This document shows, one piece after another, positions 2,912 to 31,474 of a stretch of DNA of 40,795 nucleotides; positions within the stretch are counted from its first letter, which is position 1, and every line of letters begins with the position of its first letter. This DNA is from a virus (taxonomy: Duplodnaviria; Caudoviricetes), in the IMG/VR virus record IMGVR_UViG_3300023210_000076, positions 1 to 40,795 of that record; one strand, 5' to 3'. The notes beneath the pieces were generated by a model that ran no database searches, was not told the DNA's origin, and was given only the letters and a program-made list of their open reading frames with translations. The translations under genes were made by a program, and so were the position numbers.

Positions 2912-4261
2912 TTACGTAGTTCTCGAAGTCACGTCTTTCATACCCTGATAATTAATCCCGGCTTTTATTTTAACTGGAAATTTACCATCTACTGAGATTG
3001 TATTCTTAATGTCGATCAGAAACTGCTTTCCATCATCTAAATTATAATCGAACAGTAATGAATCATATGTATATAAAATTAACTTGCTTTTATATGATTG
3101 TATCATTTCATTTACATCATTTATTATATGTAAATTATGTTCTGTCTCTCCGGCTTGGAGTTGATAATTGAATAATTTATTTGGATTCATTTCATGTAAA
3201 TGTTCTGCAAACATCGGCCGTTTAAATCGCTCTGTCTTAATAAATCCATAACGTTTATAAGCCTTCCATAAACTAGATACATATTGTTTCACTTCTCCAA
3301 AAAACGGTATCTCTGCAAAGTCTTTATCTATACCTCCATATAACAATCTAAACGTTATCTGCTTTGATTGCCCATATTGTTCTTCGGTTAATGCATCTAC
3401 ACCAAAATATTGCTTTCCGAAATACTCATGTATAGAGCCATCTGGTAAATCAAAATCTATTATATCGGCTATCAACCGTACGTGAAATGCATCATAATCT
3501 AATTCCAATAACATGCCATGTTCATGTCGTGATACAAATGAGGCACGGCTGCCATCTTCTTTATTCAAGGCAGCATAATTAACTCCACCGAACTTGTTAG
3601 ACGGTCTGCCGGTTGATGTATATAAATTATATTCGGTGTATACTTTACCATTTTGTATTCCATTGGCTTGAAACTTTTCTGTATATACATTAGCATCTAC
3701 ATGTAATCCATTTTGTTCTATTGCAAAGAAATTATCAATAGCATATGCATCATATTGTTTAAAATAAGGCGTCATTTCAAATGATGTATATGACTTCATG
3801 AATTCCTTTCTCATTGATGTACATCGTTCAATATGCCTGGTTATTGGTAACCAATCATTTGTATTTGTTTCATTATGCCACCAACGATTCCATATATCAT
3901 GTGCCATGGTATTTGTCTCAGTTAATGGTAACATTTTATGAGTTTGCCACCATGCCATTAAGTCAGCATCATAGCATTGCTTGGAGAAGAAATTACCGAA
4001 GCGCTTCTTGGCTAGTACAAAGATATCACCCTGACTTGTAACCTGTTGCAGACGTTCTATATCCTGGTTCATACAGTCCTTATGACGGAATGGTAATATA
4101 AAGTCTAGATCATCCTTAATACTATAAATGTATATAAATGATAACCGATTATTAACATAATGTTTAAACGCATCTGAATATACTGGTATCCAGAAACTAT
4201 CTGAGTCAGATATGGATTTGGTTAGGTATTCGAAATCATTATCACATTCTACAATTATCAT
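2912..4261 (-). CDS. polA: Divergent family A DNA polymerase (PolA-like, short)
   Basis: TSTGRPS (motif 2), LELDYDAFHVRLIA (motif A), KQITFRLLYGG (motif B), NYQLQ (motif 6), LILYTYDSLLFD (motif C). Confidence 0.85.
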   Translation of the reverse strand: MIIVECDNDFEYLTKSISDSDSFWIPVYSDAFKHYVNNRLSFIYIYSIKDDLDFILPFRHKDCMNQDIERLQQVTSQGDIFVLAKKRFGNFFSKQCYDADLMAWWQTHKMLPLTETNTMAHDIWNRWWHNETNTNDWLPITRHIERCTSMRKEFMKSYTSFEMTPYFKQYDAYAIDNFFAIEQNGLHVDANVYTEKFQANGIQNGKVYTEYNLYTSTGRPSNKFGGVNYAALNKEDGSRASFVSRHEHGMLLELDYDAFHVRLIADIIDFDLPDGSIHEYFGKQYFGVDALTEEQYGQSKQITFRLLYGGIDKDFAEIPFFGEVKQYVSSLWKAYKRYGFIKTERFKRPMFAEHLHEMNPNKLFNYQLQAGETEHNLHIINDVNEMIQSYKSKLILYTYDSLLFDYNLDDGKQFLIDIKNTISVDGKFPVKIKAGINYQGMKDVTSRTT

Positions 4262-19871: not shown

Positions 19872-22800
19872 TTATTGTGATCTATCTCCTAATGCCCATT
19901 TTACTACTGATACTTCAGCTCCTAGTATTACAAATGGGTCAGTTTCTGCTTCTATTCGTATAAACACTATATCCTCTTCGTAAAAGCCACTTATATCTAA
20001 TCCTTCTGTTTCAAGACTCCACGGCTTATCAGTAACTGTATCTATCGTAATGTCTTCAAATGTTCCTGCTGTTGATGTTATTGTAGAAGTATTAGCTGCT
20101 GTTCTAGCTATGGGTGTCTTCCCACCTGCAGGATCATTTACTAAAACACCTTGAACATCTTGAGCTATATAATTAATTCGAGTGGTTTGATTGGTATTTC
20201 CGGAGAGGGATTCAGCACTTGCCTGTAATCCAAATACTCTTACTTTCAATGGGTACGCTGTACAGGTTCCTTTGGGTATTGTTATTTGGAATGTTACCGC
20301 CCTTCCCGTAGTATCTATAAAGGAGTTTTGTAAAGCTTGAGGCCATGATGCTTCATCACCAGTACCGGTACCTACTGTAAAGTTTCCATTTCCAATTTTT
20401 CCATCTTCACCCCATATGTTACCCGTTGCTAAAATTGTTTGTCTGAATAAAGCCTTTCCTCTAAATGATAATTGACCCTTTGGATTAATTAGAGTTGTAT
20501 TTGGTGTATATATAAATTGTTCAAATACTGGAGATGTTGTGATTGGGTTGACTAATCTAATCCTGCCCCATCTTGCATCTATACCAAAGTTTGATGATGT
20601 CGCCCATACATTTGTATTAACATTTGCAATAATTTCTTCTTCGGCGTCATTATGGGAGAATATATTATTAGCATAGTTATACCCTTCTTCACTTGATACA
20701 GCTTGTGCCCCATCGATGTTTTCCCAAGTTGAAGCTGTTGTGAATATTTCTAAAGTTACATCTCCTGGTGAGTATGATCCGGTACTTACTTGTTTATATT
20801 CTAATCCTGTAAAGTATAGAAATTGATCTGCTATATTTGGTGATTTTTGCTTGTTTCCAATGTACATATAATCTCCACTTGCTGAGTAAGCGAAGTCAAA
20901 AGTGGAGGAGTCTTTTGATGTGGCTGCTACAGTTAATGATTGTGATACTCCACCTGAACCTGATGCCCAAACCTCCATACCTTTATTATAAGGTAATCCT
21001 TCTCCTGCACCTAGTGTAAATCCTTTATTTGCATGTCCCACCTCTATATCACTATAAACTCTAAATGCAGGCTTTAGTTTAATACCATCATCTTGAAAAG
21101 TAAAGGAATGCTCAGAGCTAACAAACTCAGGTGGGGCTGATATTTTTAGTGCTTCCATGTGAGCTGCCACAAATACTACATTACTGTCTGAGCCAGAAAT
21201 GCCTGTGTCTATTGTTAAGTGTTTTGGTACGTTGCCATCAACATACACATTCATAGCTTGAATATCGTAGGGTTGTCCTGCTATATGAAATGCTTCTTGA
21301 ACATTGAATAAGTTAGTTCCTAGAATTATACTTGTTCCACCTTCCATATAGAAGCTTGATGATATGTTAGGATTACCTGCATTAGTGTTAATTGCTTGGA
21401 GTCTTCCAGCTTCAACATGATATATTTTATCTATGTTTCCACCTACTGGTATGTGAATTCCATCACAAGCAAATATTCCTCCTTTGATATATAACAGTTT
21501 GTCAAAATCTCCACCTCCATATCTTATTTCATTATAAATTACCTTTGAAGTTGCAGATGTCTCATCTATTTGAAATCCTATACTATTACCCTGTCCTTTT
21601 AGTGTTACATCGTATATAGTTCCAGTTCCTACATTATCATAAGATATTCCTGGGAATGCTCCACTTGGACATACTAAAGTAAACCCTTCTAATCTTGAAT
21701 TTACTTCTTGTGTTATAAATGTAGCACTATTATTAGAAGCTGATATTGTAGTAGAATTTAATCCTGCAAATGACTTTAATGTTACTCCTGATGATAATGT
21801 AAATGGAGGTTCGATGTAAGTACCAGGTTCCATTATTATTGAATCACCTGAGGTTGCTGCTGCTACTGACGCTGAAACACTTGCCCAAGGTCTTTGTAAG
21901 TTACCTTTAATTGCTGTTGAATCGTCTCCAGCTGGACTAACCCATAATGTGTTTGTTACTGTTACTGGTACGTCTGTTAAGTTGCTACCGTTTCCATTAA
22001 AGCTTCCACTAAATGAACCACTATTAACTTGTGCAGAACTACTAACTACACCACTTGGTAATGTAGCAGTGATACCTGTTAAGTTTGTTCCATCTCCTGA
22101 AAAACTTCCACTAAAGCTTCCGCTGTTACTACCGGCACTGCCAGTGTCTACTGTAATGGGGAACGTTGTACCATCACCTTTTGTAAATGTTATAGTATTT
22201 AAACTAATGGATGCTGTAGCTATTAATGACCCCGTTACAGAACCCGGAATGGTGATGCCTGTTAATTGAGAACCATCACCACTAAAATAAGCTGCTGATG
22301 CTGTGCTTGCAAATATTACATCTCCTGTTGTTAGTGAACCTGATATTGTAACTAAACTATTATTATTTCCAATTCTAAGTTGATTTTCTAATGCCGTTGA
22401 TCCTAAACTACCTGATCCTATTATAATATTAGAACCACCTGTCGTTATATTTTGACCAGCAAAATATCCTATAGCTATATTATTATCTCCAGTAGTTAAT
22501 CCATTTAAAGCAGCATATCCTATTGATGTATTATTTATGGCGTTGGTTATAGCAGTTGCCATATTAGACCCTATAAGGGTATTATAACTATGGTTACCTG
22601 TATCACCAGAATGGCCTGTTGCTGTTCCATAACCTAAATAAACATTATATGAACCATTTCCATACCTAGAAGTATAATTTCCTATAGCAACTGTTTGGGA
22701 ATGGTCAGCAAATTCTCCAGCATAAGAACCCATAAATAAATTATTAGATTCTGTATTTGTATCTCTTTTACCTGCATGGTACCCAATTGTAATATTATTA

Positions 22801-23126
22801 TCTCCAGTAGTTAATCCATTTGCAGCATTTTTTCCTATTATAATATTATTTTCAGCCCCAGACTCTAATGAAGCTCCAGCATTTTCTCCTATTACTGTAT
22901 TGCTTAAAACACCTTTTCCATGGGGAATAAATGATCCTGATATTGTTAATGAACCCGTTATTACAGCGTCTCCTGTGAATGGGAAAGGGCTGCTAGCAGG
23001 TAGATTCGTTAAACCTGAACCATCACCTTCAAATGAACCACTAAAAGAGCCAGATGCATTTAATTCGTTTGCGGTTATTATTGTTCCGCTAAATGGTAGA
23101 ATGTTATTTACTTTTATTGTGCTCAT
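19872..23126 (-). CDS. Tail fibre / tailspike with beta-roll repeats and pectin-lyase-like domain
   Basis: 1084 aa; SGSFSGSF.GDGS.LT repeats, N-x-x-IG repeats, WVSPAGDD...PWASVSASVAAATSGDSIIMEPGTY beta-helix cap. Confidence 0.75.
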   Translation of the reverse strand: MSTIKVNNILPFSGTIITANELNASGSFSGSFEGDGSGLTNLPASSPFPFTGDAVITGSLTISGSFIPHGKGVLSNTVIGENAGASLESGAENNIIIGKNAANGLTTGDNNITIGYHAGKRDTNTESNNLFMGSYAGEFADHSQTVAIGNYTSRYGNGSYNVYLGYGTATGHSGDTGNHSYNTLIGSNMATAITNAINNTSIGYAALNGLTTGDNNIAIGYFAGQNITTGGSNIIIGSGSLGSTALENQLRIGNNNSLVTISGSLTTGDVIFASTASAAYFSGDGSQLTGITIPGSVTGSLIATASISLNTITFTKGDGTTFPITVDTGSAGSNSGSFSGSFSGDGTNLTGITATLPSGVVSSSAQVNSGSFSGSFNGNGSNLTDVPVTVTNTLWVSPAGDDSTAIKGNLQRPWASVSASVAAATSGDSIIMEPGTYIEPPFTLSSGVTLKSFAGLNSTTISASNNSATFITQEVNSRLEGFTLVCPSGAFPGISYDNVGTGTIYDVTLKGQGNSIGFQIDETSATSKVIYNEIRYGGGDFDKLLYIKGGIFACDGIHIPVGGNIDKIYHVEAGRLQAINTNAGNPNISSSFYMEGGTSIILGTNLFNVQEAFHIAGQPYDIQAMNVYVDGNVPKHLTIDTGISGSDSNVVFVAAHMEALKISAPPEFVSSEHSFTFQDDGIKLKPAFRVYSDIEVGHANKGFTLGAGEGLPYNKGMEVWASGSGGVSQSLTVAATSKDSSTFDFAYSASGDYMYIGNKQKSPNIADQFLYFTGLEYKQVSTGSYSPGDVTLEIFTTASTWENIDGAQAVSSEEGYNYANNIFSHNDAEEEIIANVNTNVWATSSNFGIDARWGRIRLVNPITTSPVFEQFIYTPNTTLINPKGQLSFRGKALFRQTILATGNIWGEDGKIGNGNFTVGTGTGDEASWPQALQNSFIDTTGRAVTFQITIPKGTCTAYPLKVRVFGLQASAESLSGNTNQTTRINYIAQDVQGVLVNDPAGGKTPIARTAANTSTITSTAGTFEDITIDTVTDKPWSLETEGLDISGFYEEDIVFIRIEAETDPFVILGAEVSVVKWALGDRSQ
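22477..22821. repeat. Exact 30-nt direct repeat within fibre gene (22477-22506 and 22792-22821)
   Basis: atattattatctccagtagttaatccattt twice, encoding NGLTTGDNNI. Confidence 0.85.
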
Positions 23127-23133
23127 GGGGTTC

Positions 23134-23388
23134 CTATAATATTACTAATGTAGAATCTGTTTCTATAATTAAATTTATTGATTGGCTTACTGATATTGGG
23201 CTTGCTAACATTCCGTTATATGTAGCCGGAACTGTTTGATCTGCAGTAAGTATTTGTCGGTTTAAATACAGACTCGATTGTATATCATTTGTTATATCAG
23301 CAGACGAAGCGGTAACACTAGTAGTTACGTTTAGACTATTCAATGACGCATCCGATCCGGATACGACGACTTTTTTCCAATTCGGCAT
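23134..23388 (-). CDS. Short tail-fibre-related protein
   Basis: 84 aa; N-terminus MPNWKKVVVSGS paralogous to MAEWKKVAVSGS of 23838-24776; SD TAAGGA. Confidence 0.65.
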   Translation of the reverse strand: MPNWKKVVVSGSDASLNSLNVTTSVTASSADITNDIQSSLYLNRQILTADQTVPATYNGMLASPISVSQSINLIIETDSTLVIL

Positions 23389-23401
23389 ATTATTTCCTTA
23401 T

Positions 23402-23466
23402 TACATTGCGGTTAGATACATACATTAATGCCATGCATACGCCTACTTCCTTGCGGCCAACAATAT
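23402..23466 (-). ncRNA. Candidate structured cis-regulatory leader RNA (three-way junction)
   Basis: GC-enriched island between promoter motif and SD; ATATTGT.GG/CC.GCAATGT closing stem, CC-GCAA-GG GNRA hairpin, GTATGCAT/ATGTATGT stem. Confidence 0.5.
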
Positions 23467-23488
23467 TATTATTTAATATAAATATATG

Positions 23489-23641
23489 CTATTTACGTTT
23501 AGTTGGTTTTGGTTTGGATTTTAAATCTATTTCTTTTTCAATTTTAGATTGTAAATTTGCTAGTAATCTAGCATCCGTTCCTTTAATTGTAATAACATCC
23601 AATGCATGTCGCATTAATTGTAATTCTGGTATATTGTACAT
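23489..23641 (-). CDS. Small hypothetical protein (50 aa, missed by ORF track)
   Basis: MYNIPELQLMRHALDVITIKGTDARLLANLQSKIEKEIDLKSKPKPTKRK; fills the gap 6 nt after the upstream stop. Confidence 0.75.
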   Translation of the reverse strand: MYNIPELQLMRHALDVITIKGTDARLLANLQSKIEKEIDLKSKPKPTKRK

Positions 23642-23647
23642 AACTTA

Positions 23648-23821
23648 TTATTTTATATATTGCTGTTGTAATTTATATACAATTGTATATAACTGTTCTA
23701 ACTGTTCTCCTTTGAACTGACATTCTTTTATTAAATTTAATAGAAATTCAATATCTGATTTAGTTAGTGATGTAGGAACTACGTCCTGTTTTTGTTTTTT
23801 TACTTGATTTATTAAACTCAT
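23648..23821 (-). CDS. Small helical hypothetical protein (57 aa; start revised to MSLINQ)
   Basis: ATG at 23821 preceded by TAAGG and not overlapping the upstream gene. Confidence 0.7.
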   Translation of the reverse strand: MSLINQVKKQKQDVVPTSLTKSDIEFLLNLIKECQFKGEQLEQLYTIVYKLQQQYIK

Positions 23822-23837
23822 AACCTTACTTATTATT

Positions 23838-24776
23838 TTATGCATATATCCATATATCGCCATCATCTGTATCTATGTGCATTGTACCATAACCATTTCC
23901 AGCCCCTCCATATACAGGTGCCGTAGATGCTGCGGTATGGCCTGTACCGGTTTGTATTGTACCAACATATACATCCGGGGTAAATGTCGGAGATACTGCA
24001 TCATATGAAGAAGTCAATCCCCATCTGTTTGTATTTGAATCATATGCAAGTGCTTTACCAAATCCTTGAGTATCTTGTTGTACTACAATACCACCATCAC
24101 CAACTGTAGATGATCCGGATGCTAACAATACAAATCGATCTGCTACTGCTAAATTAGTTGTTTCTTGGAACGAAGCTGTCCCTTCAACGACGATATCACC
24201 TTGAAATAATGTATTAACCGATGATATAGTAATCAATGTCCCATTATCTGAAATATTTGAATCTACAAATGAATCGCCATCCCATTTTGTTAAAGTATTT
24301 GTTGATAATGTATCGGAGCCGGACACTTGTACTGATGCTGCTGATGAACCATTATATGTAAATGATGTAATTCCGGTACTGTTTGATATTGAATTATCTA
24401 ATGTAACAGCGCCGGTGAATGATCCTGTAAATGATCCTGTCGCGCCTATACCATCAATTTGGGTAACAGTATCGCCTAAATTTATTGTAGTCGATCCAAT
24501 CGTAACTGATGAATTTGCTAATGTAGTATTTGGAATACTAGCTAGATCGAATGTAATCGTATCATTGACAACACTACCTGATATAGTTAATCCTGTATCT
24601 GCTGATCCGGTAACTATATTAAAACTTGATGTAGCCGAACTAGCTATTAATTCAACTCCATTGATGGATGCTGTGCCAAATGACATGCCAGACATTACAG
24701 ATGTCAAATACCCCGCGTCATTATCGAACTGTGATACACTACTGCCCGAGACTGCTACTTTTTTCCATTCTGCCAT
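23838..24776 (-). CDS. Tail fibre / virion structural protein
   Basis: 312 aa Ser/Thr/Gly-rich beta protein; TGSFTGSFTG, GDIVVEGTAS...NLAVADRFVLL fibre-like motifs. Confidence 0.7.
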   Translation of the reverse strand: MAEWKKVAVSGSSVSQFDNDAGYLTSVMSGMSFGTASINGVELIASSATSSFNIVTGSADTGLTISGSVVNDTITFDLASIPNTTLANSSVTIGSTTINLGDTVTQIDGIGATGSFTGSFTGAVTLDNSISNSTGITSFTYNGSSAASVQVSGSDTLSTNTLTKWDGDSFVDSNISDNGTLITISSVNTLFQGDIVVEGTASFQETTNLAVADRFVLLASGSSTVGDGGIVVQQDTQGFGKALAYDSNTNRWGLTSSYDAVSPTFTPDVYVGTIQTGTGHTAASTAPVYGGAGNGYGTMHIDTDDGDIWIYA

Positions 24777-24820
24777 AATATTCCTTTATTCTTTTATATA
24801 AATATGTTTATCAATTGAAT

Positions 24821-25969: not shown

Positions 25970-26022
25970 GTCTATATCCTTTTGATATAAATATGTAACA
26001 AATGGCACTTTAAGCTTTTAAA

Positions 26023-27366
26023 CTAAACATTTCTGCCATTTTCATAAACATGTTTCACGGTTGGAAATCTTAAACTTATACCACCTTCTTGGTTTTTTGT
26101 TTCTTCAAAGTATTGAATGGTAATTGTCTTACCAATTAATTGTTCTGGATTGGCTTGGTATCTTATTCTTTGTTCTTGATTCCAACCAGATCCAACTGAG
26201 ACTTTATATCCTTTATGCTCAATAATAACATTTGCTAACATTGGCATTACTACTTCCTTACCTTCTCTAATTACTCTATGGTCATCAAATTCAACATCTA
26301 ATACTTCATATTCGGCATCATGGAACTTTTTACATTTTAATAAGTTTTTAGATCTCTTACCTTCATAAGTAGAATCTTTTCTTAACATAACTCCTTCATA
26401 TCCATTTACATCGGCATCGGTCGTCATTTCTAATAAATGCTTGATATCTTTTACTTCTATCTGAGGTAATATACTTAATGTTTTTGTATCACTAAATACT
26501 CCGTCTACTTCTGGTAATCTCTGTAACCTTTCTGTTAATGATATATTACCTTCTTTTGAATCAAATTCTTCGATTGATATACAATCAAATATAATATATT
26601 TTGGATTTTTAATAGTATGATCTTTTCTTTTGATTTGTTTCATTATTCCTTGAAAATCTTCATTTCCATTTTCATCCATCATACAAATCTCCCCGTCTAA
26701 TACAAAGTCATTATGCCAACTTATTTCATCACTGATATATAAAATATCATCTAATACTTTTTGTAAGGTCGTAAACTCATTTCCTGCTCTAGAATAAGCA
26801 TTTATTTTATTTCCTTCCTTTCTTATAATACATCTTACACCATCCAATTTTCTAGACGCTAACCAAACTTCATTTTCGAAATCACAAAATTTAGGTTCAT
26901 ATTTGGTTGCTAAGGCAACATCAAAGGATGGAATTAAATTTGGAATGACTTTATTAATAACTGATTCAGAAGCTCTAATTTCTAAGTTTCTATCAATAAT
27001 AGAATAAAATAAATCTTCGAATTCCGGATAGGCATTTATATATGAAACAAACATCATGATAGCTTCATGTCCGGTGAAAAATCTTTCATTTAAGTCTTTT
27101 AATATATTGAAGAAAGAATCATTTGGATTATCACCCACTATAGCGGTAAGTACATCATCGGCTAAATGACTCATTTTTTTACAAGTCTTACTAGTTATAT
27201 AATACTTCTTATATGGATCATAGGTATAATTTAACGCCTCTGTAATGAATTCATCATCCTTTACTGAATCAATTATAACCTTTTTCTCTATTAGCGATGA
27301 AGTAGCTTTCATATCATCTACAAATTTTTGTAATCTTTTTAAATTTTCGGTTTCTTTATATTTCAT
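26023..27366 (-). CDS. lig: ATP-dependent DNA ligase
   Basis: SRKLDGVRC (motif I KxDG), LDGEI (III), FDCI (IIIa), EGVMLR (IV), LLKCK (V), SLRFP (VI). Confidence 0.95.
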   Translation of the reverse strand: MKYKETENLKRLQKFVDDMKATSSLIEKKVIIDSVKDDEFITEALNYTYDPYKKYYITSKTCKKMSHLADDVLTAIVGDNPNDSFFNILKDLNERFFTGHEAIMMFVSYINAYPEFEDLFYSIIDRNLEIRASESVINKVIPNLIPSFDVALATKYEPKFCDFENEVWLASRKLDGVRCIIRKEGNKINAYSRAGNEFTTLQKVLDDILYISDEISWHNDFVLDGEICMMDENGNEDFQGIMKQIKRKDHTIKNPKYIIFDCISIEEFDSKEGNISLTERLQRLPEVDGVFSDTKTLSILPQIEVKDIKHLLEMTTDADVNGYEGVMLRKDSTYEGKRSKNLLKCKKFHDAEYEVLDVEFDDHRVIREGKEVVMPMLANVIIEHKGYKVSVGSGWNQEQRIRYQANPEQLIGKTITIQYFEETKNQEGGISLRFPTVKHVYENGRNV

Positions 27367-27464: not shown

Positions 27465-27959
27465 TTAATTAAACATATAACTCATTAAACGCTCTTTTTC
27501 TGCTAAAAATAATTTTGCAAATTTAGGATCATGTTCTAAAATTGATTCTGAATTATGTTCTATGTCATATCTTTTTATCTGCTTGGCTCTTTTAGATACA
27601 TATGCCAATCTCAATGCTTCCATTTCCTTTCTATATTTTCTATTATGATCAGGAAAAGCTTCTTTGGTATATACATCAGTTAATTCAACAACTAATGATA
27701 AAATATCTTCTGCACTTTCAACACTAAATGTTTTATGCAAAAACGCTCTCATTTCTGAATGAGTAACTTTAGTATCTTCCAAAACATCATGGAGGTAAGC
27801 AGCACTGGTCATATTATTATCTTCATATCTTTCATGAACTCGTTCTGCAACTGCAATTGGATGAGTAATATAACCTTCTCCGGTATATTTTCTTATTTGG
27901 TCTTTATGAGCCTCTGCTGCAAATTCTAATACACTTATGCTTCCTACGAAAATTTCCAT
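27465..27959 (-). CDS. HD-domain hydrolase, SpoT/MESH1-like small alarmone hydrolase
   Basis: AHKDQIRK, YITHP, AAYLHDVLEDT, V.ELTD, IKRYDIEHN motifs. Confidence 0.8.
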   Translation of the reverse strand: MEIFVGSISVLEFAAEAHKDQIRKYTGEGYITHPIAVAERVHERYEDNNMTSAAYLHDVLEDTKVTHSEMRAFLHKTFSVESAEDILSLVVELTDVYTKEAFPDHNRKYRKEMEALRLAYVSKRAKQIKRYDIEHNSESILEHDPKFAKLFLAEKERLMSYMFN

Positions 27960-28151: not shown

Positions 28152-28189
28152 ATATAAATATAAGGAGAATATATCGTAAGTCCTAATTT
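28152..28189 (-). promoter_or_regulatory. Bipartite promoter upstream of 63-aa ORF/HD operon (repeat copy 2)
   Basis: AAATTAGGACTTACG-N9-CCTTATATTTATAT. Confidence 0.8.
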
Positions 28190-31219: not shown

Positions 31220-31474
31220 TTAAAAAGCTTTCTCGTCGTTTATTTTTTGTATATATCTAGCATGGCTTAGTTCACGACGACGTCTAACAGATTCTTTTAT
31301 ATATTCTTTACGATCTCTATAATCTTCGATAACACCAGCATCTTTAACAGCACGTTTCCATTTTCCAATGGCTGCGTTAATATCACCATCTGGTCTTCTT
31401 TTAGTTGGAACGACTTTTGTTCCTAATGCATGACCAGGAATTATAGAATCTAGATGTCTTGTATGTTTACTCAT
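31220..31474 (-). CDS. rpsU: Phage-encoded ribosomal protein bS21
   Basis: DINAAIGKWKRAVKDAGVIEDYRDRKEYIKESVRRRR matches the bS21 pattern (I..AL..FKR.....G...E...R..Y.KPS..RR); C-terminal ARYIQ. Confidence 0.85.
   Translation of the reverse strand: MSKHTRHLDSIIPGHALGTKVVPTKRRPDGDINAAIGKWKRAVKDAGVIEDYRDRKEYIKESVRRRRELSHARYIQKINDEKAF

What the first reader, a model, noticed from the sequence alone, without database searches (positions are those of the whole stretch)
23402..23466. Compact three-way-junction RNA in the leader of the tail-fibre operon
Seen (minus strand): ATATTGTTGG CC-GCAA-GG AAGTAGGC GTATGCAT-GGCATTA-ATGTATGT ATCTAA CCGCAATGT. It has a closing stem, a GNRA hairpin, an AAGU linker and a second stem. 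It sits between the ATATTTAT motif (23478-23485) and the SD TAAGGA, and is GC-richer than other spacers. Inference: a cis-acting translational operator or riboswitch-like element controlling fibre synthesis. I cannot match it to a family I know.
Basis: partly seen in the sequence, partly recalled or inferred. Interest (0 to 1): 0.7.

Follow-up and report, generated by a model that had tools for sequence, protein, structure and literature searches.

The report
Phage leader RNA masking fibre start
A small three-armed stretch in front of one tail-fibre-like gene is kept, with compensating base changes, across hundreds of aquatic phage sequences and matches no catalogued RNA family; its fold is predicted to cover the gene's start signal, so it likely limits how much fibre is made, probably under the control of a phage protein that is not yet identified.

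Summary
Real and conserved. The 64-nt element (23403-23466, minus strand) folds no better than shuffles alone, but it is one copy of a widespread phage RNA family. It has a near-invariant three-way-junction core, covarying stems and no Rfam match. 80 of 80 loci picked by protein alone carry it. It occurs once per complete genome (3 of 3) and precedes MP[NS]WKK fibre-like genes, not their paralogues (0 of 42). No cellular gene context turned up. The window is a bS21-encoding T4-like phage related to Flavobacterium phage immuto. In this copy the P3 loop GGCAU is complementary to the start AUGCC. One clade swapped the loop to ACUCACU and gained AGUGAGU before the AUG (18 of 18, against 1 of 256 others), which supports a loop-to-start-region pseudoknot. 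Best reading: a translational OFF operator, probably stabilised by a phage protein (0.5); riboswitch about 0.12. Expression, ligand and direction of control are untested. This scan found the family before on other DNA, including the loop-start pairing. It may be among Fremin 2023's anonymous candidates, whose alignments I could not read.

The parts
23478..23485 (-). ATATTTAT, likely a late promoter (TATTTATA differs from the T4 late promoter TATAAATA at two places); the start it predicts lies near 23471
   Evidence: 21 matches against 13.3 expected, 18 on the coding strand; within 60 nt of the RNA in 124 of 162 copies; promoter function and start site inferred
23457..23466 (-). P1 5' strand: AUAUUGU, bulged U (23459), GG
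   Evidence: the second G-C pair becomes A-U in 30 of 30 genuine hits
23449..23456 (-). P2 hairpin CC-GCAA-GG; length and loop vary in the family
23446..23448 (-). Junction strand AAG (AAG in 160, GAG in 2 of 162)
23413..23445 (-). P3: U-A, A-U, G-C, 2-nt 3' bulge (23416-23417), G.U, C-G, then the upper stem
   Evidence: A-U/G-C swap 37/125; C-G becomes U-A in 3 of 162
23426..23432 (-). P3 loop GGCAUUA; GGCAU (23428-23432) is complementary to AUGCC at the start codon (predicted pseudoknot)
23403..23412 (-). Junction A (23412), CC and P1 3' strand GCAAUGU
23395..23400 (-). SD-like UAAGGA, outside P1 in this copy; not a family feature
23134..23388 (-). 84-aa ORF starting MPNWKK; its first bases AUGCC (23384-23388) are the predicted partner of the P3 loop; the immuto homologue is annotated 'putative tail fiber-like protein'
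   Evidence: no PHROG or Pfam family
19872..23126 (-). 1084-aa fibre- or spike-like ORF that follows 7 nt after the 84-aa ORF
   Evidence: phrog_4636 tail spike, E 8.9e-11, best stretch residues 76-188
23489..23641 (-). 50-aa ORF (S2), likely paralogue of S1; present in 59 of 120 loci
   Evidence: (probability 81%, E 1.2e-5)
23648..23821 (-). 57-aa ORF (S1), predicted helical hairpin of no known family; present in 117 of 120 loci; candidate binder or fibre chaperone
23838..24776 (-). 312-aa paralogue starting MAEWKK; no such RNA in front of it
   Evidence: 0 of 42 such starts

Best explanation
It is a conserved three-way-junction RNA in the leader of one fibre-like gene that likely works as a translational OFF operator: when folded it is predicted to hide the initiation region, and a phage protein probably binds the near-invariant junction to hold it shut. 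Shown by calls: the fold's stems covary, the junction and bulge bases hardly vary, and the element has one fixed place before MP[NS]WKK genes. Inferred: (1) It is transcribed whole from the upstream promoter-like word. (2) Masking takes three forms: short-armed copies bring P1 up to about -12; long-P3 copies such as this one pair the P3 loop with AUGCC or, in one clade, with a spacer word; long-P2 copies bury the start of the SD in P1 and pair the P2 loop with UGCCA. (3) The fold is only marginally stable and so needs a partner. (4) The partner is most likely the fibre's own unassembled N-terminal module (feedback repression) or the 57-aa protein encoded just upstream; I cannot tell these apart.
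For: Covariation. Out-of-sample test: changing the 3' C of a pair that was invariant in the alignment to U in the search pattern returned 30 genuine copies among 37 hits, all 30 with A instead of G on the 5' side. Place: 58 of 60 and 77 of 80 protein-selected loci have it directly upstream, and the other 3 of the 80 have a GIY-YIG-like gene in between. 88 of 120 pattern-selected hits are followed by MP[NS]W[KRN]K, 4 more are genuine and 28 are chance-like. RNA strand: 76 GNRA loops and 0 reverse-complement GNRA loops; 116 of 917 outer P1 pairs are G.U. Masking: all 78 long-P3 variants have a loop complementary to the initiation region (60 GGC[AG] to AUGCC; 18 ACUCACU to AGUGAGU). AGUGAGU stands in 18 of those 18 spacers, in 1 of 256 others and in 0.6% of shuffles. 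The same stem carries either loop. 78 of 95 long-P2 variants have a GGC- or GGU-type loop, and all 78 have Pro codon CCA or CCG, whereas the codon is free in the swapped clade. P1 reaches -12 in 101 of 118 short-armed copies and in 0 of 78 long-P3 copies; -12 and -13 are initiation determinants in Bacteroidia (PMC9976891, passage). Marginal stability: the median predicted probability of the junction-closing pair is 0.27 in 162 copies. One copy in each of 3 complete genomes. Only phage-like contexts in GTDB. Precedents: T4 gp32 and gp43 operators (PMC3014915, passages); P22 scaffolding protein autoregulation (bioRxiv 2022.12.13.520362, one passage).
Against: There are no expression, probing, binding or reporter data. 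The groups are not independent samples: the loop swap appears to be one clade (one event; it was not on the tree), the long-P2 group is one or two clades, and the marker tree is weak (14 of 113 branches starred). The majority group (98 of 162 before targeted scans) has no loop complementary to the start (mean run 2.4 against 2.6 in controls), and 17 of 95 long-P2 variants lack one. A few loops mismatch (2 GGCU, 1 GGCAAA, 3 GGCAUU). L457 has the swapped loop without the partner word (contig end, no fibre ORF seen). L083 and L351 have about 118-130 nt between the RNA and the fibre start. L060 has an MPNWK start without the RNA. S1 has no obvious RNA-binding signature, and the fibre's N-terminal motif is shared with a paralogue that lacks the RNA. 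Nearest-neighbour energies underrate junctions, so marginal stability is weak evidence.
Confidence: 0.5

Rival explanations
1. A ligand-free brake or timer. The fold alone dampens initiation to set a low fibre copy number, shields the 5' end, and in the promoter-less clade is melted by the ribosome finishing the upstream S1 gene (translational coupling).
For: The masking evidence is the same. P1 begins 5-6 nt after the promoter-like word in 61 of 124 copies, close to the predicted start. In the long-P2 group only 1 of 29 has that word, and the upstream stop lies 6-17 nt before the junction in the group's rows. T4 has protein-free inhibitory leader structures.
Against: A plain brake needs pairing, not fixed letters, yet 17 positions were invariant in 81 copies (the set was partly chosen by pattern), the junction strand is AAG in 160 of 162 and the bulge positions are fixed. 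In T4 gene e the late start removes the 5' strand, whereas here the promoter-like word lies upstream of the whole fold.
Confidence: 0.22
2. A phage-specific translational riboswitch. A metabolite, ion or signalling nucleotide binds the junction and docks the loop on the start codon, tying fibre synthesis to the state of the host.
For: A compact core with near-invariant junction and bulge bases, variable arms and a loop-to-initiation-region pairing is the layout of translational riboswitches (recalled). McCown 2017 leaves open that phages use undiscovered classes.
Against: No copy stands before a cellular gene: 3 genuine hits among 8 in 185,579 genomes, all in phage-like context (exact pattern only), and in 151 Bacteroidota genomes only the phage contig and one weak coding match (34 candidates scored per genome). 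It has one gene partner only, with no metabolic link. Riboswitches are rare in phages. No similarity to any Rfam family.
Confidence: 0.12
3. A ribosome-recruiting or entrapment element that raises or gates initiation through the 30S subunit, possibly through ribosomes carrying phage bS21.
For: The window encodes bS21, as do 4 of 5 near-complete carriers tested. Bacteroidia ribosomes ignore SD sequences, so other initiation aids are plausible. The distance to the AUG is narrow (12-25 nt).
Against: Immuto has the RNA and no bS21 match. The element stands before one gene only, not before the major structural genes. Pairing over the AUG, SD or -12 region points to repression.
Confidence: 0.08
4. 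It is not a translational element: a DNA site for swapping fibre genes, a self-cleaving ribozyme or processing signal, or a separate small RNA.
For: The fibre sequence after the first 12 residues is highly variable, and endonuclease-like genes insert right after the element. Invariant junction bases also occur in ribozymes (recalled).
Against: G.U pairs and GNRA loops occur on one strand only. The loop swap is matched by a word in the initiation region. There is one copy per genome, no ribozyme family match and no room for a terminator between the element and the AUG.
Confidence: 0.06

Closest known systems
T4 gene 32 and gene 43 translational operators; E. coli rpsO (S15) pseudoknot operator (PMC3014915, passages)
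   Same: A structured leader of a T4-like phage gene, with a pseudoknot near the start and likely protein-dependent repression.
   Different: It has a three-way-junction core; the pseudoknot partner is the start codon or spacer itself; the regulated gene is a virion fibre rather than a nucleic-acid-binding protein; no binder is known.
T4 inhibitory initiation-region structures (gene e, I-TevI; PMC3014915, passages)
   Same: An RNA fold over the initiation region of a late gene, next to a late promoter.
   Different: In T4 gene e the late start removes the 5' strand. Here the promoter-like word lies upstream of the whole fold, and the junction letters are conserved.
P22 scaffolding protein (gp8) translational autoregulation (bioRxiv 10.1101/2022.12.13.520362, one passage)
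   Same: An assembly protein whose N-terminus is implicated in control of its own translation.
   Different: It is a different phage group and a head protein rather than a fibre; no shared RNA structure was tested.
Glutamine-I (glnA) and c-di-GMP-II riboswitches (Rfam RF01739, RF01786; accessions taken from earlier notes)
   Same: A small multi-stem leader; glutamine-I has a similar-looking GGAAGUA run (recalled) and occurs in two cyanophages.
   Different: No Rfam match at E up to 10 in the window or at the motif in 20 relatives; no cellular copies; the gene context is a fibre gene.
Anonymous viral candidate RNAs of Fremin, Bhatt and Kyrpides 2023 (PMC10690425)
   Same: The same kind of source (IMG/VR intergenic regions) and size range (median 65 nt).
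   Different: Could not be compared: the alignment files were too large or unreadable here. The readable tables gave no hit for six motif words or six context terms.
bS21-encoding Bacteroidetes phages (Chen 2022, PMC9723584) and Immutovirus
   Same: The host phage group: a bS21 gene among the head genes, and a T4-like capsid 56% identical to immuto.
   Different: The paper's main text has no occurrence of promoter, motif, noncoding or tail fiber; it does not describe this RNA.

Membership tests
Any Rfam 15 family (including riboswitches, ribozymes, r-protein leaders, GP20 motifs) | Covariance-model match at the gathering score | tested here: not met
   0 matches in the window. At E up to 10 only an SD-driven 14-bit DUF2815 match. 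9 weak matches in 20 relatives, none over the motif.
Glutamine-I or c-di-GMP-II riboswitch | Match to the family model | tested here: not met
   Not listed at E up to 10.
Riboswitch (any class) | Selective small-ligand binding that changes expression | not testable with these tools
   Needs in-line probing and reporters.
Riboswitch (any class) | Association with genes related to a ligand in cellular genomes | tested here: not met
   only phage-like fibre context; these searches are limited in sensitivity.
Protein-bound translational operator (T4 gene 32/43, rpsO type) | Conserved structure at or over the initiation region of one gene | tested here: met
   (by comparison of sequences; not probed).
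Protein-bound translational operator (T4 gene 32/43, rpsO type) | Bound by a specific protein, usually the gene product, with repression | not testable with these tools
   No RNA-protein tool; co-occurrence only.
T4 gene e-type inhibitory structure | Late transcript start removes the 5' strand of the structure | tested here: inconclusive
   The promoter-like word ends upstream of the first P1 pair in all 124 copies that have it, 5-6 nt upstream in 61, which argues against; no start site was mapped.
bS21-encoding Bacteroidetes phages (Chen 2022) | bS21 gene among the core structural genes | tested here: met
   PF01165 at 31220-31474, E 3.5e-10, between the capsid and prohead protease genes.
bS21-encoding Bacteroidetes phages (Chen 2022) | Placement in one of the five TerL clades | not tested
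   No TerL tree was built.

The most novel reading that the evidence does not exclude
A phage-only riboswitch or host-state sensor: a small molecule binds the invariant junction and docks a loop on the start codon, so that the phage sets the dose of a host-recognition fibre by the physiology of the cell it is leaving. It would be the first riboswitch class found only in phages and the first to control a virion part.
Probability: 0.12. Interest if true: 0.92.

Novelty: new variant of a known kind. Interest (0 to 1): 0.68.

Why it matters
It is a common, uncatalogued structured RNA (about 1,300 stored IMG/VR stretches match the core pattern, about three quarters of the sampled ones genuine) in large aquatic phages of Bacteroidota. 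It appears to control a fibre gene after transcription. One fixed core is joined to three interchangeable ways of hiding the start region, including a natural whole-loop swap. A cultured carrier (immuto) and a tractable related host (F. johnsoniae) make ligand and mechanism directly testable. It also bears on how translation is regulated in a phylum whose ribosomes ignore Shine-Dalgarno sequences.

Tried and rejected
Single-sequence folding gave no support. Rfam gave nothing at either threshold. BLASTN of the leader against cultured phages gave only short chance matches, and tblastn of S1 only one weak hit. RNA-seq: two metatranscriptome runs held 6% of the words, and their two short contigs lie in the upstream 312-aa gene, none over the leader, which is no evidence either way. 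S1 structure: a helical hairpin (pLDDT 83) with best Z 4.9 and no match of Z 5 or more among 48,161 chains; the Atlas gave only unnamed viral clusters; 682 homologues, and none of the 120 listed has a Pfam family. No S1-fibre complex model was obtained, so that link is open. Phage bS21 as a required partner was rejected because immuto lacks a match. Pairing of the junction's own GGC with AUGCC was rejected because the GA/UC clade keeps AUGCC without compensation. A universal loop-AUG pairing was rejected: short-armed copies score at control level. Promoter distance does not correlate with P1 length (rho 0.13, p 0.15, n 117). A glutamine-I likeness (recalled) was not supported by Rfam. The careful tree did not finish; the quick tree (116 rows, 70 columns) is weak. 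Literature searches that found no description of this RNA: 0 papers; 0; 3 unrelated; 10 listed. The library lacks most subscription journals; Fremin 2023's alignment supplements were unreadable; Weinberg 2017's supplements were not searched.

Full report
Observation. The quoted sequence is at 23403-23466 on the minus strand, between the stop of a 50-aa ORF and the AUG (23388) of an 84-aa ORF starting MPNWKK. The element is 41.5% G+C; the whole spacer is 30%, below four of the other 14 spacers of 40 nt or more. The window alone therefore proves nothing.

Host genome. The window is a 40.8-kb linear viral record with T4-like capsid, portal, terminase, sheath and tube genes and a bS21 gene at 31220-31474. 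Its capsid is 56% identical to Flavobacterium phage immuto and 60% to Microcystis phage Mel-JY01. Chen 2022 predicts Bacteroidetes hosts for bS21 phages (PMC9723584; passages and part 2 of 6 read). The host of this phage is inferred, not shown. 'Fibre' rests on the immuto annotation of the homologue and a tail-spike PHROG match in the next ORF; the 84-aa ORF itself matches no family.

The family. Of 60 viral loci found with the 84-aa protein, 58 show the motif directly before the match. L052's match is the paralogue and its motif lies downstream; L060 has none. A core pattern independent of the protein gave 120 hits of an estimated 1,300 stretches: 88 followed by MP[NS]W[KRN]K, 4 more genuine (two with an endonuclease-like ORF next, one with a long spacer, one cut short) and 28 chance-like. 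I aligned 81 of the 135 distinct parsed copies. RNAalifold gave P1 with a one-base bulge, P2 stacked directly on it, an AAG strand, P3 with a 2-nt bulge and a single A. For this structure 95.9% of 1,454 cells pair, 11 of 18 pairs change on both sides, and the score is 0.45 against 0.17 in 500 shuffles and at most 0.11 when slid; the shuffles ignore relatedness. A better test came from outside the alignment: immuto has U where all 81 had C. A scan with that U gave 37 hits, of which 30 are genuine and all 30 have A in place of G on the 5' side. A second such pair, C-G, becomes U-A in 3 of 162 copies. A covariance model found the RNA in 80 of 80 loci chosen by the fibre's N-terminus alone, 77 directly upstream and 3 with a GIY-YIG-like gene between (these were the best 80 of 532). 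It occurs once in each of 3 near-complete genomes and before 0 of 42 starts of the non-proline paralogue. Of 122 four-base P2 loops, 76 are GNRA and none is the reverse complement, and 116 of 917 outer P1 pairs are G.U; this points to RNA on the coding strand.

Not in cells, not in Rfam. An exact pattern over 185,579 GTDB genomes gave 8 hits; 3 score 55-65 bits and all 3 sit between an S1-like gene and an MP[NS]WKK gene in metagenome bins. The model on 151 Bacteroidota genomes found one of those contigs and one 26-bit match inside a gene, with only 34 candidates scored per genome. Rfam gave nothing relevant for the window or for 20 relatives.

Masking of the start region. The core ends 12-25 nt before the AUG (median 17; 132 copies). 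After three targeted scans for long arms, 274 distinct variants fall into four groups (long arms are over-sampled, and before those scans the split was A 35, B 29, C 98 of 162). A (60, this window): long P3, loop GGC[AG], complementary to AUGCC. D (18): the same kind of stem with loop ACUCACU; all 18 have AGUGAGU starting 9-14 nt before the AUG, against 1 of 256 others and 0.6% of shuffles. No long-P3 variant falls outside A and D. B (78): long P2 with a GGC- or GGU-type loop complementary to UGCCA; all have an SD-like word, whose start lies inside P1 in 23 of 29 counted, and Pro codon CCA (76) or CCG (2), while the codon is free in D (CCA 9, CCU 5, CCG 4). Wobble-keeping changes occur (GGCG, GGUA). 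C (118): short arms and no complementary loop, but P1 reaches position -12 in 101, against 0 of 78 in A and D. Bacteroidia initiation depends on adenines at -3, -6, -12 and -13 and on low structure, not on SD pairing (PMC9976891, passages). Against this reading: D is apparently one event and was not on the tree, B is one or two clades, A is scattered among C on a weak tree, and the groups were first defined by the trait itself. 17 of 95 long-P2 variants lack the loop word. L457 has the D loop without its partner at a contig end, and L083 and L351 have long spacers. The pseudoknot is predicted, not probed.

Transcription. ATATTTAT occurs 21 times against 13.3 expected, 18 on the coding strand and mostly shortly before starts. 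TATTTATA differs at two places from the T4 late promoter TATAAATA. With T4 spacing (recalled) the start would fall at or just before P1; the word ends 5-6 nt before the first pair in 61 of 124 copies and 11 nt before it in this window. Group B mostly lacks the word (1 of 29) and follows the S1 stop closely, so coupling is possible there. RNA-seq gave no cover of the leader.

What could bind it. The junction strand, both bulge positions and several pairs hardly vary while the arms are free, which suggests a recognised surface (inference). The junction-closing pair has a median predicted probability of 0.27. S1 lies upstream in 117 of 120 loci and S2 in 59, none of them in group B; the two are likely paralogues. 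S1 is a predicted helical hairpin without an informative fold match. The fibre N-terminus has invariant M, P, W, K and S in 96 aligned starts. Phage bS21 is not required, as immuto lacks a match. By analogy with T4 gp32 and gp43 (PMC3014915, passages) and P22 scaffolding protein (one passage), I favour a phage protein holding the leader shut (0.5) over a ligand-free brake (0.22), a riboswitch (0.12; phages rarely carry known ones, PMC5473149, passages), a ribosome-recruiting element (0.08) or a non-translational role (0.06).

Novelty. Eight literature searches found no description. Weinberg 2017 passages show nothing similar (supplements not searched). Fremin 2023 screened IMG/VR and could hold this RNA as an unnamed candidate: I read part 1 of 5 of the text and searched four table files without a hit, but the alignment files could not be read. 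PMC2115188 was seen only as reference-list passages. After my analysis I found that this scan had reported the family on other DNA at least ten times, twice with loop-start pairing; these are unchecked notes and not independent support, and their short listings do not mention the loop swap. Verdict: a real, uncatalogued RNA family, a new variant of the phage translational-operator kind, with the mechanism untested; interest 0.68.

Noticed in passing
window 31220-31474 (-): Phage-encoded ribosomal protein bS21 among the head genes; also in 4 of 5 near-complete carriers tested, not in immuto.
   Followed up: partly
L275 489-1205 (+); L165, L193, L508; L071 1240-1485 (-); L360: GIY-YIG-like and HNH-like ORFs (family names by recalled motifs) start at the AUG right after the RNA, with the fibre gene pushed downstream where the locus shows it (L071, L275). 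Those in loop-pairing groups (L360, L508) keep AUGCC; two of three in short-armed copies do not.
   Followed up: partly
window, 18 minus-strand sites, e.g. 24798-24805, 25987-25994, 28154-28161: ATATTTAT(A) shortly before many starts; looks like a variant of the T4 late promoter for this phage group.
   Followed up: partly
window 23489-23821 (-): Two small paralogous helical-hairpin proteins of no known family; S1 has 682 homologues; possible fibre chaperones.
   Followed up: partly
window starts listed: 17 of 43 listed starts have an SD-like word, although the predicted host group ignores SD sequences; may relate to phage bS21 or a different host. No control was run.
   Followed up: no
window 23134-23388 and 19872-23126 (-): The fibre-like gene is an 84-aa ORF followed by a 1084-aa ORF, whereas many relatives have one long ORF after the RNA; lengths range from under 70 to over 1000 aa.
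   Followed up: no
L083 1533-1650 (+); L351: Copies with about 118-130 nt, possibly structured, between the RNA and the fibre start.
   Followed up: no
L220, L225, L226: Phage contigs binned into GTDB genomes labelled Pelagibacter, Bifidobacterium and Flavobacteriales; likely mis-binned or infection-derived.
   Followed up: partly
window 2912-4261 (-), 27465-27959 (-), 26023-27366 (-): A family A DNA polymerase-like ORF, an HD-domain protein and an ATP-dependent DNA ligase lie within the structural gene region.
   Followed up: no
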